DNA of 64,000 nt from Patescibacteria group bacterium (GTDB lineage Bacteria; Patescibacteriota; Minisyncoccia; Phycocordibacterales; UBA1550): positions 48,746 through 112,745 of the forward strand of contig JBBTUT010000002.1 of NCBI GenBank assembly GCA_038063615.1, written 5' to 3'. This document shows, in pieces, positions 24,532 to 58,674 of this stretch; position 1 is the first letter of the stretch; each line of letters starts with the position of its first letter. A program made the translations under genes and the position numbers. The notes beneath the pieces are model-generated. The model searched no databases and was not told the origin of the DNA. It saw only the letters and a program-made list of their open reading frames with translations.

Positions 24532-24807
24532 TTAAACCCCGCCAATCTCTTTCAATAATTCCAATGTTGTTTTAACAGACGGATTTTCTGTGTTTAAAAA
24601 TACCACTCGATCCTTAAATTTTTTAGCTATAGGACCCAGGAACTCCGCTCCCCACGATGGAGAAAAAGCGACAACTCCGTCAAAATCGATCATGACAGGT
24701 TCGTCTTTTTTTATTTCGTTCAACAATGGGGAAAAAGCGAGAGAGGCCTCTCTTCCTGCTGGGCGGGACATTAGTATTGTTCCAAATTTTTTTAAATAAA
24801 TTTTCAT
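24532..24807 (-). CDS. STAS-like DUF4325-family protein (putative anti-anti-sigma-type partner)
   Basis: 91 aa with GTILMSRPAGRE...IDFDGVVAFSPSWGAEFLG, the DUF4325/STAS-like pattern. Sits immediately downstream of a GHKL-ATPase protein. Confidence 0.45.
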   Translation of the reverse strand: MKIYLKKFGTILMSRPAGREASLAFSPLLNEIKKDEPVMIDFDGVVAFSPSWGAEFLGPIAKKFKDRVVFLNTENPSVKTTLELLKEIGGV

Positions 24808-24811
24808 ATAT

Positions 24812-25531
24812 TTAGAATGTTATATATGCAAGACACCCGCGAATAATATTTTTAGTTGCCTTCATGTTCAGAATACCATCATCCTTATGAAGGAGCACTT
24901 CCGTATTGCCAGACTGAAACACAAGTCCTATAGGATTTTCAGTAATAACCTTCTTCACAAACTTTAGACCGTTCCCCCTCTCTTCTGGAGCACGACCTGA
25001 CAAAATTTCCATAAAAGCCACAGAGAGTGCCGCCTCATCAGTATTCAAACTTGGTCTCACTCGCTTTAAACTTGCGAGCACCCCGATACCGCGATCCGCC
25101 AACACTATCTGTCGTCTTGAAATATCGTATCCGAAAAATATACCTGGGACATCCGGCCAATTTCCAATATTGTGGTCAAAAGAATTATTTCCTATTTCTC
25201 CAGTAACTGCAAGTACAAGGGAAGAGATATGAGCAAGGGCAGGCACCGTTGCAATTTCGTCGTACATTCTTTTGATCCGCGCCTGAAAAACACCGCTGTT
25301 TTGACAATAAAACATTTCTGGTATTTCTGTCTCGTTCACACACCAATCCTTTGCCAAAACGAAGATATCCTTCAAGTAAATCCCCACTTTTGCTTTTGAA
25401 TACAATCGATGTCCACCTTCCGATTTTTCAGCATGAAAACGACCGGATTTATCCCAGCGACGGAGAGTATCAATGGAAACACCTAGTATTTCTGCCGCTT
25501 CCCCAATAGAGATAAGGTCTTTCTCGTTCAT
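24812..25531 (-). CDS. Fusion of a MerR-type HTH (N-terminal) and a GHKL/HATPase_c (RsbW-like serine-kinase-type) ATPase domain. Start set at MNEKDLISIG.
   Basis: ISIGEAAEILGVSIDTLRRWDKSGRF...HRLYS is a canonical MerR HTH. The C-terminal part has an N-box EIGNNSFDHN, G1 LADRGIG and G2 GNGL. Confidence 0.55.
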   Translation of the reverse strand: MNEKDLISIGEAAEILGVSIDTLRRWDKSGRFHAEKSEGGHRLYSKAKVGIYLKDIFVLAKDWCVNETEIPEMFYCQNSGVFQARIKRMYDEIATVPALAHISSLVLAVTGEIGNNSFDHNIGNWPDVPGIFFGYDISRRQIVLADRGIGVLASLKRVRPSLNTDEAALSVAFMEILSGRAPEERGNGLKFVKKVITENPIGLVFQSGNTEVLLHKDDGILNMKATKNIIRGCLAYITF

Positions 25532-25557
25532 CCCTAACATGATAACATAACAAAAAA

Positions 25558-25629
25558 ATCTATGCAAGAATTCAAAAATCTATGCACTCATCGAGCAGTC
25601 ATGCATAGATATTTGGCAAAATCTATGCA
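25558..25629. promoter_or_regulatory. Cluster of ATCTATGCA repeats (three direct, one inverted forming ATCTATGCA-N15-TGCATAGAT) immediately upstream of the MerR-GHKL gene. Candidate operator.
   Basis: Sites at 25558, 25578 and 25621, and an inverted copy at 25602. Confidence 0.4.
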
Positions 25630-25743
25630 TGACTATTTTAATAACTGTTCCAGCATACCCCATTGTTGCCAAAATATAACATTTTGACCTCAACGGGATT
25701 CATGGTGCCACTATCGTAACATAATTGCAGAAAACGAGAAATC

Positions 25744-26484: not shown

Positions 26485-27519
26485 ATGAAAAAAGCACTCA
26501 TCACCGGCATCACGGGGCAAGACGGTTCATATCTCGCGGAACTTCTCCTTGAAAAAGGATATGAAGTTCACGGTATAATCAGACGCGCAAGTACATTCAA
26601 TACCTCACGCATCGATCATCTTTATCAAGATCCCCACATCAAGGGCGTAAAATTATTCCTACACTATGGAGATCTCTCCGACGGAAGCAACATCAACAGA
26701 CTTCTCACGCAAATAAAACCGGACGAAATTTATCATCTCGGCGCTCAAAGTCATGTGCGCGTAAGTTTTGATATACCGGAATATACCGGCGATGTAACGG
26801 GGCTCGGAACACTCCGCATCCTTGACGCAATTCAAGAAACGGGAATCAAAACAAAATTTTACCAGGCATCATCAAGCGAAATGTTTGGAAAAGCGCTTGA
26901 GATCCCCCTCAAAGAAACCACACCATTTTATCCTCGCTCGCCATACGGCTGCGCAAAAGTATATGCGTACTGGATAGCAAAAAATTACCGTGAATCCTAC
27001 GGTGTTTTTGCCTCGAACGGCATACTTTTTAACCATGAGTCCCCTCGTCGCGGAGAAACATTTGTGACTCGTAAGATCACGCGAGGACTCGCGCGTATCA
27101 AACTCGGCAAGGAGGAAAAACTTTATCTTGGGAACCTCGATGCAAAAAGAGACTGGGGGTATGCAAAAGACTATGTGTATGGGATGTGGCTGATGCTCCA
27201 ACACACAGAGCCGGATGATTTCATTCTCGCCACAAACGAAACGCACAGTGTTCGTGAATTCATCGAAGAAGCATGCAAGCATCTTGGTTTTGAACTTAAA
27301 TGGAAAGGAGAGGGTGTAAATGAAAAAGGTATCGATAAAAAATCAGGAAAAACTATCGTAGAAATTGACGCAAAATACTTTAGGCCTGCCGAAGTTGATA
27401 TTCTCCTTGGGGACTACTCAAAAGCAAAAAATAAGCTCGGGTGGGAACCAGAAACAAAATTCAAGGAGCTGGTGAAACTTATGGCTGAAGAAGATCTTAA
27501 AAATGAACAAAAATTCTAA
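26485..27519 (+). CDS. gmd: GDP-mannose 4,6-dehydratase
   Basis: [34 protein letters not shown]...[10 protein letters not shown] match Gmd over the full length. Confidence 0.95.
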
Positions 27520-28435
27520 AATTTTTGTTGCAGGGCATCGCGGGCTTGTTGGCTCCGCTATTGTACGCGTGCTCCAAAAAAATGGCTTCACGAACCTCGT
27601 TCTCAAAACACACAAGGACATGGACCTCACCGACCAACACGCGGTCACTGAATTTTTTGCAGAAGAGAAACCTGAGTATGTTTTTCTTTCCGCGGCAAAA
27701 GTGGGCGGTATTATGGCAAACAAAACTATGCCTGCCGACTTTGCCTATAACAATCTCGCAATCCAGACAAACATCATCCATAGCGCCTACATACACAAAG
27801 TAAAAAAGTTGTTATTTCTCGGAAGCTCCTGCATCTATCCAAAACTCTGCCCACAGCCGATAAAAGAGGAATATCTTTTATCCGGAGAACTTGAGTCATC
27901 GAACAAAGCGTATGCAATAGCAAAAATAGCGGGCATCATTATGTGCCAATCCTACAACGAACAATACGGCACAAATTTCATTTCATTGATGCCGACCAAC
28001 CTCTATGGACCCCACGATAACTTCGATCTCGAAAACTCGCATGTCCTCCCTGCGATGATTCGAAAATTCCACGAGGCAAAAGTTAACGATGCACCAAGTG
28101 TTACTTTATGGGGCACAGGAAGCGCGAAGCGCGAGTTTCTCCATGTGGACGACCTCGCGGAAGCAAGTTTATTCTTGATGCAGAATTACAACGACTCCTC
28201 CATTATCAATGTCGGCACTGGCGAAGATGTGACTATTAAAGAACTCGCGGAAAAAATAAAAGAAGTTGTTGGATACAGGGGTGAAATCATTTGGGATATC
28301 ACCAAGCCCGACGGCACCCCAAGAAAACTCCTTGATGTCAGCAAGCTTCATACACTTGGATGGGGACACTCTATATCGCTCAATGATGGTATCTCCTCGA
28401 CATATAAATGGTTTAAGGAAAACCATAAATACTAA
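27503..28435 (+). CDS. fcl: GDP-L-fucose synthase (GDP-4-keto-6-deoxymannose 3,5-epimerase/4-reductase)
   Basis: [16 protein letters not shown]...[10 protein letters not shown]...YAIAKIAGI are Fcl/WcaG motifs. Confidence 0.9.
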
Positions 28436-55686: not shown

Positions 55687-55760
55687 TGCGCGATCCAGGA
55701 CTCGAACCTGGGACCTCGTCATTATCAGTGACGCGCTCTAACCACCTGAGCTAATCGCGC
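55687..55760 (-). tRNA. tRNA-Ile (anticodon GAU), 74 nt, no encoded CCA
   Basis: GCGCGATTAGCTCAGGTGGTTAGAGCGCGTCACTGATAATGACGAGGTCCCAGGTTCGAGTCCTGGATCGCGCA. A 7 bp acceptor stem, GTGG D-loop, anticodon loop CTGATAA and TTCGAGT T-loop. Confidence 0.85.
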
Positions 55761-56410: not shown

Positions 56411-57026
56411 GTTTGAAAAATTGCATGTATGTAATATCTAAAAATTATTTGTTGAGTATTCTTTCTTTTGTTCCGTTCTTCGCCTTGCTTTGCCGTCCGT
56501 TTTAAAAAAACAGGCGATTAAGCAAGGTCTTGCGTACCGGTAACCCTTCCGGTAAGGGAGCCCCTTTTTGAGATGGGAGGGCCTTCATCTTAATTCCTTG
56601 CGGAAAAAACCGACCAATTCAGCGTATCGCAACCACGAGGGCGTACGATACAACATTATATTTTGAATTGATTCACGACCAGCTTCCGCTAGCCGTGCCT
56701 TGTTACGACTTAGTCCTTGTTACCAAGCTTACCTTAGGTCCACGCGAGGTGGAACTTCGGGTACTCTCGGCTCCCCTGACTTGACGGGCGGTGAGTACAA
56801 GACTTGAGAACGTATTCACCGCAGTATAGCTGACCTGCGATTACTAGCGATTCCAACTTCATGAGGTCGAGTTTCAGCCCTCAATCCGAACTGGGGCCAC
56901 CTTTATTAGGATTAGCTCAGGGTTACCCCGTCGCGACCCGTTGTAGTGGCCATTGTATCAAGTGTGCAGCCCAGGGTATCAAAGGGACATGCTGACCTGG
57001 CGTCATCCTCTCCTTCCTCCCCCGCC

Positions 57027-57153
57027 TTTATTCGCGAAGCGAACAAAGGCAAGTCAAAAGTTAAAAGTCACAAGTCGAAAGTAGATGCATTTTGCATTCA
57101 CTTTTTACTTTACACTTTCTACTTTCCACTTGCCTTTGCGCTTCGTGCGCAAA
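57027..57153 (-). other. 16S insertion 1: an AT-rich extended hairpin of about 116 extra nt replacing the small loop before the GGAGGAAGG region (E. coli position about 1165)
   Basis: Sense strand reads TTTGCGCACGAAGCGCAAAGGCAAGTGGAAAGTAGAAAGTGTAAAGT...ACTTTCGACTTGTGACTTTTAACTTTTGACTTGCCTTTGTTCGCTTCGCGAATAAA, full of (G/C)AAAGT repeats. No ORF. Confidence 0.6.
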
Positions 57154-57388
57154 GGCGGGGGCAGTCTCGTCTGACACATATAACAGACAACGAGGGTTGC
57201 GTTCGTTGACCCACTTAAGGGGACAGTTCAAACCACGAACTGACGACGGCCATGCATCACCTGTCCATAAGTCCTTGCGGAGTTACCGAGTTTCCTCGGT
57301 CTTTCTTATGGATTTCTAACCCTGGTGAGGTTCTTCGTTTACCATCGAATTAAGCCACCTGATCCACCGCTTGTGCAAGTCCCCGTCT

Positions 57389-57420
<32 letters not shown>

Positions 57421-57918
57421 TCCCAGGCGGATCTCTTAACGCGTTAGCTTCGCCTCTCAGAGGGTCGATACTCCGAAAAGCTAGAGATCATCGTTTAGGG
57501 CGTAGACTACTGGGGTATCTAATCCCATTCGCTACCTACGCTTTCGTGTTTCAGTGTCAGAAATGTGCCAGTTTGCTGCCTTCGCATTTGGTGTTCCCCA
57601 TGATATCAACGGATTTCACCCCTACACCATGAGTTCCGCAAACCTCTCACACCCTCTAGTCGTGCCGTTTCAGCCGCAATTCTCCGGTTAAGCCGGAGGC
57701 TTTGACGAATGACTAACACGACCACCTACACACCCTTTACGCCCAATAATTCCGGATAACGCTTGGGGTACTCGTATTACCGCTGCTGCTGGCACGAGTT
57801 TAGCAACCCCTTATTCATGAGGTACTATCAAAAATTTCTCCCTCATAAAAGATCTTTACATCCCGAAAGACTTCATCGATCACGCGGCGTCGCTCCATCA
57901 GACTTTCGTCCATTGTGG

Positions 57919-57949
<31 letters not shown>

Positions 57950-58189
57950 ATGGTCCGTGTCTCAGTACCATCGGTGGGGGTCAGGCTCTCACCTCCCCTA
58001 AGCGTCATAGCCTTGGTAAGCCATTACCTTACCAACTAGCTGATACTCAATAAGCCAAGCCCCAAGCGATAAATCTTTACTCCGAAGAGACTATCAAGTA
58101 TTAGCCCGCCTTTCGGCGGGTTATTCCTGACTTGGGGGTTTGTACCTATTTATTACTACCTCGTTCGCAACTCCGAGCATCACGCTACG

Positions 58190-58292
58190 CGCGATACACG
58201 AGTCAAAAGTCGAAAGTCCTTAAAGTCCAAAGTAAATACGAATTGTATTCACTTTTGACTTTCGACTTTATAAACTTTTTGACTTGTGCATC
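58190..58292 (-). other. 16S insertion 2: an AT-rich hairpin expansion of helix 6 (V1 region), about 95 extra nt, with the same AAAGT/GACTTT repeat flavour
   Basis: Stem base CCGAGCATCAC ... GTGATGCTCGG. The interior reads CAAGTCAAAAAGTTTATAAAGTCGAAAGTCAAAAGTGAATACAATTCGTATTTACTTTGGACTTTAAGGACTTTCGACTTTTGACTCG. Confidence 0.6.
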
Positions 58293-58674
58293 ACACCCAA
58301 TGTGATGCTCGGCGTTCTACTTGCATGCCTTATCCACGCCGCCAGCGTTCATCCTGAGCTAGGATCAAACTCTCTTAAAAAGAGCATTTGAATTAACTCT
58401 CAAGAACGGAACAAAAGAAAAAATACTCTTTTGTATTCTTGTTATTTTACTCACAAGATCTGCCCAACTGCTAAAATCGAACAGATCCTTTTTTGGACTT
58501 GCAATCCAAACTTTAGATGTTTACATATATGCAATTGTCAAAGGTCGTTTTGCTTTCGGGCAAATACCCTGAAAGCAAAAGCGCTCATTCCTAAGCGCTT
58601 GAGCAGTATATACTTGTGTCGAAAAGAAGTCAAGCGCGAATTTTAGGCATATTTTATAGGCAAAATAAAGGTTT

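What the first reader, a model, noticed from the sequence alone, without database searches (positions are those of the whole stretch)
24532..25629. Fusion of MerR-HTH with a GHKL (RsbW-like) ATPase plus a downstream STAS-like DUF4325 protein, with ATCTATGCA operator repeats
A DNA-binding MerR domain fused to an anti-sigma-type serine-kinase/ATPase fold, immediately followed by a STAS-like partner, looks like a partner-switching module wired directly to DNA binding. That is not the classic RsbW/RsbV/sigma arrangement. The upstream region has three direct and one inverted ATCTATGCA sites, including ATCTATGCA-N15-TGCATAGAT, consistent with MerR-type autoregulation. The module sits at the edge of the glycan locus.
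Basis: partly seen in the sequence, partly recalled or inferred. Interest (0 to 1): 0.6.

Follow-up and report, generated by a model that had tools for sequence, protein, structure and literature searches.

The report
DNA-binding kinase with STAS-like partner
A two-gene regulatory module widespread in the tiny 'candidate phyla radiation' (CPR) bacteria joins a DNA-binding domain to an anti-sigma-type protein kinase and pairs it with a small STAS-like partner. The regulator reads direct repeats in its own promoter, so this is a sigma-free relative of classical partner-switching systems.

Summary

The A-B pair is conserved in 88 of 88 related loci across many CPR lineages, while all other neighbours change. 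Non-CPR relatives keep the pair but carry a different HTH or none.

The ATCTATGCA sites are part of a conserved promoter layout:
- 2-4 direct repeats of TGCATAG, spaced 20-21 bp;
- the proximal repeat at the -35 position;
- an extended -10;
- an ATG 6-9 nt further on.

Residue 21 of the recognition helix covaries with the repeat core (D with CA, Q/M/A/T with TA, N with GG, T/S with AG or GA). This argues that A binds its own promoter. The binding mode resembles BldC on direct repeats, not classical MerR.

The closest characterised systems are VapK-VapS and CapK-CapS (2026); VapS is itself a DUF4325 protein. I rate it a new variant of a known kind. Phosphotransfer, the direction of control and any targets beyond autoregulation remain untested.

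The parts
24812..25531 (-). Gene A, 239 aa: HTH-GHKL fusion protein (coordinates include the stop codon at 24812-24814)
   Evidence: ORF. Full-length homologues at 49-90% identity start at the same Met.
25382..25513 (-). MerR/BldC-type winged HTH (about residues 7-50). The recognition helix is S19-I-D21-T-L-R-R-W26.
   Evidence: Pfam MerR E 1.2e-13. Best PDB matches are the BldC-DNA complexes 6AMA/6AMK. Residue 21 covaries with the operator core.
25235..25381 (-). Helical linker region (about residues 51-99) with CPR-invariant W63, Y75, C76 and F82. It contains no STAS domain.
   Evidence: Alignment; helices in both models.
24815..25234 (-). GHKL (Bergerat-fold) ATP-binding domain of the RsbW/SpoIIAB type (about residues 100-239). 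It has an N box at E112/N116/H120, a G1 box at D146-G150 and a G2 box at R185-L189.
24532..24807 (-). Gene B, 91 aa: single-domain DUF4325 STAS-like protein. It starts 4 nt after the stop codon of A.
   Evidence: Pfam PF14213 E 3.5e-6. A homologue lies directly downstream of A in 88/88 loci. BLASTP to VapS gives E 9e-5.
24655..24663 (-). Codons for S49-P50-S51 of B, the candidate phospho-acceptor at the start of the second helix
   Evidence: The P-S-W motif is invariant in 88 unique homologues. S49 is S/T in CPR. The motif aligns around VapS S48 and CapS S54.
25556..25567 (-). Operator copy O1, TTGCATAGATTT. It is the proximal copy, and its TTGCAT occupies the -35 position.
   Evidence: A proximal copy is followed by a 16-18 nt spacer and TAnnnT in 61/83 loci.
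25576..25587 (-). Operator copy O2, GTGCATAGATTT. It is a direct repeat 20 bp upstream of O1.
   Evidence: Spacing of 20-21 bp accounts for 66 of 89 adjacent pairs.
25601..25612 (+). Operator copy O3, ATGCATAGATAT, in inverted orientation
   Evidence: The same arrangement occurs in L007/L008, and in a covarying form in L006.
25619..25630 (-). Operator copy O4, ATGCATAGATTT. It is the distal direct copy and forms a 10-nt-spaced inverted pair with O3.
25539..25547 (-). Extended -10 element TGT-TATCAT. It lies 17 nt after TTGCAT and 7 nt before the ATG, which implies a leaderless or nearly leaderless mRNA.
   Evidence: Read. TG precedes the -10 in 54/61 loci. The gap from the -10 to the ATG is 6-9 nt in 36/61 loci.

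Best explanation
This is a self-regulating two-gene signalling operon. Protein A joins a BldC/MerR-type DNA-binding domain to an RsbW/SpoIIAB-like serine-kinase (GHKL) domain. Protein B is its single-domain STAS-like (DUF4325) partner and probable substrate.

Shown by comparative evidence:
- A's HTH recognises direct repeats of TGCATAG.
- These repeats are phased two helical turns apart, at and upstream of the -35 position of the operon's own extended -10 promoter.
- A therefore occupies its own promoter, most likely as a repressor, because the proximal site sits where sigma region 4 would bind.

Inferred by analogy with SpoIIAB-SpoIIAA, RsbW-RsbV, CapK-CapS and VapK-VapS:
- Unphosphorylated B docks on A's ATP-bound GHKL domain.
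- B is phosphorylated on the conserved S49/S51 motif.
- The bound and free states of A differ in oligomerisation or DNA affinity. Promoter occupancy would then report the ATP/ADP state or an unknown input.

The covalently attached HTH takes the place that a sequestered sigma factor has in classical partner switching.
For: Domain identities:
- The HTH is supported.
- The GHKL motifs E112/N116/H120, DxGxG and RGNGL are invariant across 149 sequences.
- A's N116 aligns with CapK N218, whose mutation abolishes CapS phosphorylation.

Partner:
- B is DUF4325.
- VapS, shown experimentally to be a phospho-regulated partner of a GHKL kinase, is also DUF4325 (E 2.7e-17).
- B is adjacent to A in 88/88 CPR loci and in 4/4 distant relatives.
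- The PSW motif is invariant.

Operator:
- 67/83 loci have at least two same-strand copies of a locus-specific core within 130 nt upstream.
- Spacing is 20-21 bp in 66/89 adjacent pairs.
- Site density is 543-fold above the rest of the loci.
- HTH residue 21 is D in 60/62 loci where the core is CA, and never D with other cores (0/21, Fisher 1e-17). Q/M/A/T pairs with TA, N with GG, and T/S with AG or GA.

Promoter geometry is given. In addition, 57 of 133 exact double-site matches in metagenomes are directly followed by gene A.
Against: - No kinase activity, A-B binding or DNA binding has been measured.
- The GHKL domain fails every sequence-library threshold.
- Similarity to VapK and CapK is weak (hhalign E 3e-4 and 2.4e-3).
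- The acceptor serine is ambiguous. S49 is Gly in some non-CPR relatives, and VapS S48 aligns between S49 and S51.
- No second paired operator was found in the 64-kb window or in about 0.5 Mb of flanks. An output beyond autoregulation is therefore not shown.
- The covariation statistic is not corrected for phylogeny.
- No PP2C phosphatase was looked for.
- A symmetric GHKL dimer does not obviously fit direct repeats.
Confidence: 0.6

Rival explanations
1. The HTH serves only for housekeeping autoregulation. The real output is a protein-protein interaction. The GHKL domain sequesters an unlinked target, such as a sigma factor or an enzyme, and B releases it, as in classical partner switching or SiaB-SiaC.
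Against: No candidate target gene is conserved next to the pair. The HTH and its operator are under strong, covarying constraint across lineages. An unrelated wHTH has been fused to the same domain independently, which suggests that DNA binding is part of the function.
Confidence: 0.25
2. The GHKL domain is an ATP/ADP-sensing, non-catalytic or slow ATPase module. B is a stoichiometric co-regulator that is never phosphorylated.
For: S49 is not universal. No phosphatase is linked to the pair. The family-specific loop HN(L/I)GNWPD and other differences from RsbW leave catalysis unproven.
Against: The general-base Glu and the Mg-binding Asn of the N box are invariant. The closest characterised relatives phosphorylate their STAS partners. 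S51 is invariant.
Confidence: 0.12
3. It is a mobile defence or toxin-antitoxin controller like CapKS or VapKSC, regulating an adjacent immune or glycan operon.
For: VapS is DUF4325. Close relatives have a PemK toxin gene nearby. The module borders a variable glycan locus.
Against: There is no PADLOC hit beyond the HTH and no toxin or conserved downstream operon, since the neighbours differ in each lineage. The pair is 49-64% identical across many CPR classes and is found in at least 573 species representatives. That pattern fits an old, mostly vertically inherited core gene pair.
Confidence: 0.03

Closest known systems
VapK-VapS(-VapC) and CapK-CapS (Chambers et al., EMBO J 2026, PMC13373217)
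   Same: A GHKL serine kinase sits next to a STAS-type substrate. VapS belongs to the same Pfam family as B (DUF4325). The conserved Ser lies at the same place in the partner. CapK also carries an N-terminal HTH, and the CapK-CapS pair autoregulates. The GHKL boxes align.
   Different: CapK and VapK have a STAS domain inside the kinase that binds ssDNA, whereas A has only a helical linker. In CapS the DNA-binding wHTH is on the substrate, and in VapS a C-terminal tail inhibits a toxin. B has neither. Here the kinase carries the functional HTH. There is no immune operon or toxin. The distribution is CPR-wide rather than in defence islands. Sequence similarity is marginal.
SpoIIAB-SpoIIAA, RsbW-RsbV and UsfX-RsfB partner-switching modules
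   Different: No sigma factor is sequestered or encoded nearby. The partner is DUF4325, not the canonical STAS family PF01740. The kinase is fused to a DNA-binding domain. No linked PP2C phosphatase is seen.
BldC family of MerR-like regulators (Schumacher et al., Nat Commun 2018, PMC5859096)
   Same: The HTH has its best PDB sequence matches to BldC. The operators are direct repeats of variable number, the hallmark of BldC head-to-tail binding.
   Different: BldC is a 68-residue stand-alone protein, and its repeats are contiguous. Here the repeats are 20-21 bp apart and the HTH is tethered to a kinase domain.
Classical MerR regulators (MerR, CueR, BmrR)
   Same: The N-terminal winged HTH belongs to the MerR Pfam family.
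   Different: A has no coiled-coil or effector domain. Its operator is not a palindrome in an over-long 19-20-nt spacer. The spacer is 17 nt in 51/61 loci.
SiaB-SiaC (Pseudomonas aeruginosa)
   Different: SiaC is not in the Pfam family of B; from memory it is DUF1987, which I did not check. From established knowledge, its output is a diguanylate cyclase. It has no DNA-binding domain.

Membership tests
GHKL / Bergerat-fold ATPases | N box (E-x3-N-x3-H), G1 box (D-x-G-x-G) and G2 box (G-x-G-L) in the canonical order | tested here: met
   E112/N116/H120, D146-G150 and R185-G-N-G-L189 are invariant or nearly invariant in 26 and 149 sequences.
GHKL / Bergerat-fold ATPases | Bergerat alpha/beta sandwich fold | tested here: met
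GHKL / Bergerat-fold ATPases | A match to a Pfam HATPase_c family above the gathering score | tested here: not met
   The window protein has no hit at E <= 0.1. Sub-threshold HATPase_c, _c_2 or _c_5 hits occur in 7 of 10 divergent relatives.
RsbW/SpoIIAB-type partner-switching kinases | A minimal GHKL domain structurally closest to anti-sigma kinases | tested here: met
RsbW/SpoIIAB-type partner-switching kinases | An adjacent STAS-fold antagonist with a conserved Ser/Thr at the start of helix 2 | tested here: met
   A DUF4325 gene is adjacent in 88/88 loci. S51 is invariant and S49 is S/T in CPR. The fold of B was not modelled, and which Ser is the acceptor is unresolved.
RsbW/SpoIIAB-type partner-switching kinases | A cognate sigma factor that is bound and inhibited, usually encoded in the operon | tested here: not met
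   No sigma gene lies next to the pair in any neighbourhood. Binding cannot be tested here.
RsbW/SpoIIAB-type partner-switching kinases | A PP2C phosphatase that resets the antagonist | not tested
   None is adjacent in the neighbourhoods listed. Genome-wide presence was not examined.
RsbW/SpoIIAB-type partner-switching kinases | Serine phosphotransfer to the partner | not testable with these tools
   This requires a kinase assay.
CapK-CapS / VapK-VapS | A partner of the DUF4325-type STAS family | tested here: met
   VapS gives PF14213 E 2.7e-17 and B gives E 3.5e-6. B against VapS by BLASTP gives E 9e-5. The CapS STAS domain itself is not hit by PF14213.
CapK-CapS / VapK-VapS | A STAS domain within the kinase, N-terminal to the GHKL domain (the ssDNA sensor) | tested here: not met
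   Residues 51-99 of A are modelled as helices only. No Pfam hit.
CapK-CapS / VapK-VapS | An output domain on the partner (a wHTH in CapS, an antitoxin tail in VapS) and a downstream immune or toxin gene | tested here: not met
   B is 91 aa and consists of the STAS-like domain only. The downstream genes vary.
CapK-CapS / VapK-VapS | Significant sequence homology of the kinase domain | tested here: inconclusive
   hhalign of A2 against VapK gives E 3e-4, probability 39%, over 134 columns. Against CapK it gives E 2.4e-3, probability 12%.
MerR family | An N-terminal MerR-type winged HTH | tested here: met
   PF00376 E 1.2e-13 and PF13411 E 5e-10.
MerR family | A palindromic operator within a 19-20-nt -35/-10 spacer, with activation by DNA distortion | tested here: not met
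   The operators are direct repeats at and upstream of -35. The spacer is 17 nt in 51 loci and 16 or 18 nt in 10 loci, out of 61.
BldC family | A MerR-like HTH without a coiled coil that binds direct repeats of variable number | tested here: inconclusive
   The best PDB hits are BldC (E 3e-5). There are 1-4 direct copies per promoter. The binding mode is not testable here, and A is not a stand-alone small protein.

The most novel reading that the evidence does not exclude
The pair may be a lineage-defining master switch of CPR/Patescibacteria. In this reading a promoter-bound serine kinase has its occupancy toggled by a STAS-like partner according to cellular energy or host-contact state. It would be a partner-switching circuit that dispenses with sigma factors altogether, controlling a regulon of single-site promoters and stand-alone B genes that could not be seen here.
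Probability: 0.25. Interest if true: 0.8.

Novelty: new variant of a known kind. Interest (0 to 1): 0.6.

Why it matters
- CPR bacteria make up a large share of bacterial diversity, have tiny genomes, and have hardly any regulators studied by experiment; this is background knowledge, not tested here.
- This pair is found in thousands of CPR sequence clusters at 50-60% identity. Public records name it only 'helix-turn-helix domain-containing protein', 'excisionase family' or 'hypothetical protein'.
- The work gives the pair a testable mechanism. It defines an operator and a predicted specificity residue (D21) whose mutation should re-programme DNA recognition.
- It gives DUF4325 a second, non-defence context beside VapS.

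Tried and rejected
- Sequence-only identification of the C-terminal domain failed. Pfam, NCBIfam, PADLOC, PDB phmmer and two PDB profile searches gave only HTH hits or nothing.
- The first AlphaFold run used 26 close homologues and was too poor to use (pLDDT 61). A 149-sequence alignment that included HTH-less relatives fixed this.
- The afdb50 fold library was unavailable.
- The classical MerR mechanism was rejected on spacer length and repeat orientation.
- A functional link to the glycan locus was rejected because the neighbours are not conserved.
- The defence-system reading was rejected.
- The regulon search was negative. The other TGCATAG copies in the window lie inside ORFs, and the flanks of 83 loci hold no other paired sites.
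- The metagenome scan for the double site gave 57 hits followed by A. Most of the 69 other hits are tandem satellites or coding repeats. Only a few are plausible extra targets.
- No solved structure matches B by sequence.

Full report
**What is there.** Both genes lie on the minus strand.
- Gene A runs 24812-25531 and encodes 239 aa. Homologues fix its start at the ATG of MNEKDL.
- Gene callers elsewhere start three codons earlier, and the ORF list offers a TTG at 25567. Both of those positions fall inside the promoter.
- Gene B runs 24532-24807 and encodes 91 aa. It begins 4 nt after A's stop codon.
- Residues 8-44 of A match Pfam MerR (E 1.2e-13). B matches DUF4325, the 'STAS-like domain of unknown function' (27.1 bits against a cut-off of 23).
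- ATCTATGCA occurs five times in the window where 0.41 are expected.

**The C-terminal domain of A.** No sequence method recognises it. Pfam, NCBIfam, PADLOC and PDB searches, with a single sequence or with profiles, return only HTH hits.
- The family alignment shows invariant E112-x3-N116-x3-H120, D146-R-G-x-G150 and R185-G-N-G-L189. These are the N, G1 and G2 boxes of GHKL ATPases.
- A search of 1.84 billion representative proteins found only 295 relatives. These include forms of about 195 aa that lack the HTH. Seven of ten such forms give sub-threshold HATPase_c-type hits.
- A first model from 26 close homologues was poor (pLDDT 61). With 149 diverse sequences the domain folded at pLDDT 94 and pTM 0.90.
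- Foldseek returned only GHKL ATPases.
- 'RsbW-like' is therefore justified by structure, though not by sequence thresholds.

**Conservation of the pair.**
- The full-length protein has 5,652 relatives among 90% clusters. Nearly all named ones come from Patescibacteria/CPR.
The best 80 are 49-64% identical and cover many CPR classes.
- In all 88 loci held, a B homologue (45-86% identical) starts 3-60 nt after A.
- Every other neighbour differs between lineages. The glycan-locus position in this window, which its 88%-identical relative shares, is therefore incidental.
- Outside CPR the same GHKL domain occurs without an HTH or with an unrelated winged HTH (HTH_24/MarR). The carriers are MAGs labelled Deltaproteobacteria, Elusimicrobia, Lindowbacteria and Bdellovibrionales. 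All four such loci examined have a DUF4325 gene directly downstream.
- The kinase-like domain plus DUF4325 is thus the ancient unit. DNA-binding domains were added to it more than once.

**The operator.** Upstream regions of 83 non-redundant loci share one layout.
- They hold direct repeats of (T/A)TGCATAG(A/T/G)(T/G)TT. 67 of 83 loci have at least two exact same-strand copies of a locus-specific 7-mer core within 130 nt of the start.
- Spacing is 20-21 bp in 66 of 89 adjacent pairs. Most of the rest are 10, 30 or 41 bp, which also fits helical phasing.
- Site density is 543 times that in the rest of the loci.
- The proximal copy is followed after 16-18 nt (17 nt in 51 loci) by TAnnnT in 61 loci. 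TG precedes that hexamer in 54 of these 61, making an extended -10.
- The base before TG is T in 90% of proximal copies but only 52% of distal ones. This fits the proximal copy doubling as the TTG of a -35 element.
- The ATG follows the -10 by 6-9 nt in 36 of 61 loci, so the mRNA is probably leaderless.
- In this window the layout is TTGCAT (25567-25562), 17 nt, TGT-TATCAT (25547-25539), 7 nt, ATG (25531).

**Evidence that A reads these sites.** Residue 21 of the recognition helix (S-I-D21-T-L-R-R-W) covaries with the two variable bases of the core TG[NN]TAG.
- D pairs with CA in 60 of 62 loci.
- Q, M, A or T pairs with TA.
- N pairs with GG.
- T or S pairs with AG or GA.
- No locus without D has CA as its main core (0 of 21; Fisher 1e-17, not corrected for phylogeny).
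- The HTH's best solved relatives are the BldC-DNA complexes 6AMA and 6AMK. BldC binds direct repeats head to tail, unlike classical MerR proteins.
- Classical MerR logic, a palindrome in a 19-20-nt spacer, is not met.

**Regulon.**
- The other three TGCATAG copies in the 64-kb window lie inside ORFs.
- No other paired sites occur in the flanks of 83 loci.
- An exact double-site scan of metagenomes gave 133 matches in 120 stretches of DNA. 57 are directly followed by A and 7 lie at contig ends. The other 69 are mostly tandem satellites or coding repeats.
- Three of those matches precede a stand-alone B gene with no A on the contig (L095, truncated; L106; L196).
- Only autoregulation is therefore supported. 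Wider targets are open.

**Comparison with known systems.** A 2026 paper (PMC13373217) describes two related systems.
- CapK (HTH-STAS-GHKL) phosphorylates the STAS-wHTH repressor CapS on S54.
- VapK (STAS-GHKL) is inferred to phosphorylate VapS at S48 and so release VapC; the support is phosphomimetic and S48A mutants, not a direct assay.
- I took the sequences from that paper's supplements.
- VapS is a clear DUF4325 protein (E 2.7e-17). This fits an older note that one VapC clade is 'transcriptionally coupled to DUF4325 genes'.
- B aligns to VapS (E 9e-5), with VapS S48 falling between B's S49 and S51.
- The A profile aligns weakly to the GHKL domains of VapK (E 3e-4) and CapK (E 2.4e-3). 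In that alignment A's N116 sits on CapK N218, a residue required for phosphorylation.
- The differences are clear. A has no internal STAS domain, B has no output domain, the functional HTH is on the kinase, and there is no toxin or immune operon.

**Mechanism.** These points are shown or strongly supported:
- the two-gene operon;
- the HTH plus RsbW-like GHKL architecture;
- the obligate DUF4325 partner;
- sequence-specific recognition by A of phased direct repeats that overlap its own -35 position.

These points are inferred:
- A represses its own promoter;
- B binds the GHKL domain and is phosphorylated on S49 or S51;
- the state of that complex, set by ATP/ADP or an unknown signal, changes A's promoter occupancy.

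The main rival model is that the HTH only autoregulates and the real output is a protein target of the kinase domain.

**Verdict.** I rate it a new variant of a known kind, notable for its breadth and conservation in CPR bacteria and for its readily testable specificity code.

Noticed in passing
window 56661-58380 (-), 55687-55760 (-): A bacterial 16S rRNA gene spans 1720 nt against a 1533-nt model, so it carries about 190 nt of insertion, as is common in CPR. A tRNA lies downstream. No 23S rRNA reached the gathering score anywhere in the window, so the rRNA genes may be unlinked.
   Followed up: no
window 25529-25567 (-): Gene A appears to be leaderless, with only 7 nt between the extended -10 and the ATG. 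The same holds in many related loci. Gene callers begin the protein three codons early, at the ATG at 25540 (P0001, 242 aa), and the ORF list offers a TTG at 25567. Both positions fall in the promoter.
   Followed up: partly
L106 6968-7280; L196 1665-2019; L095 2481-2512: In these metagenome contigs the double TGCATAG operator sits directly in front of a stand-alone DUF4325 (B) gene, with no gene A on the contig. This suggests either split modules or extra B copies under A control.
   Followed up: partly
L089 3960-4000; L091 3960-4000: Non-CPR relatives have a winged HTH in place of the MerR HTH. They carry palindromes (TTGATAGTATACTATCAA and TAGTTTATACTAAACTA) just before their start codons. 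Autoregulation may therefore be general, while the operator symmetry follows the type of HTH.
   Followed up: no
window gene A residues 76, 233 and 120-127 (about 25304-25306, 24833-24835, 25151-25174): C76 and C233 are invariant within the CPR clade, and the loop HN(L/I)GNWPD is nearly invariant across the family. To my knowledge neither has a counterpart in RsbW/SpoIIAB. They could be a redox or ligand site, but this is unexplained.
   Followed up: no
L007 4021-4803; L008 2653-3435: In the 88%-identical relatives, the gene upstream of A is a PemK-toxin/DUF5674 pair instead of the window's cytidylyltransferase-like gene. The Wzy_C/TPR gene downstream is retained, which shows local gene turnover at this border.
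   Followed up: no
L147 2230-2261; L157 264-295; L141/L172; L168: A few metagenome contigs carry 2-3 phased TGCATAG copies upstream of unrelated genes. These include a Cys-rich 198-aa protein, a 59-aa basic protein with no assigned family and a 211-aa protein. They may be regulon members or chance matches.
   Followed up: no
window 27503-27519: The 26485-27519 and 27503-28435 ORFs (a likely GDP-mannose dehydratase and GDP-fucose synthase, judged from their translations only) overlap by 17 nt, which suggests translational coupling.
   Followed up: no
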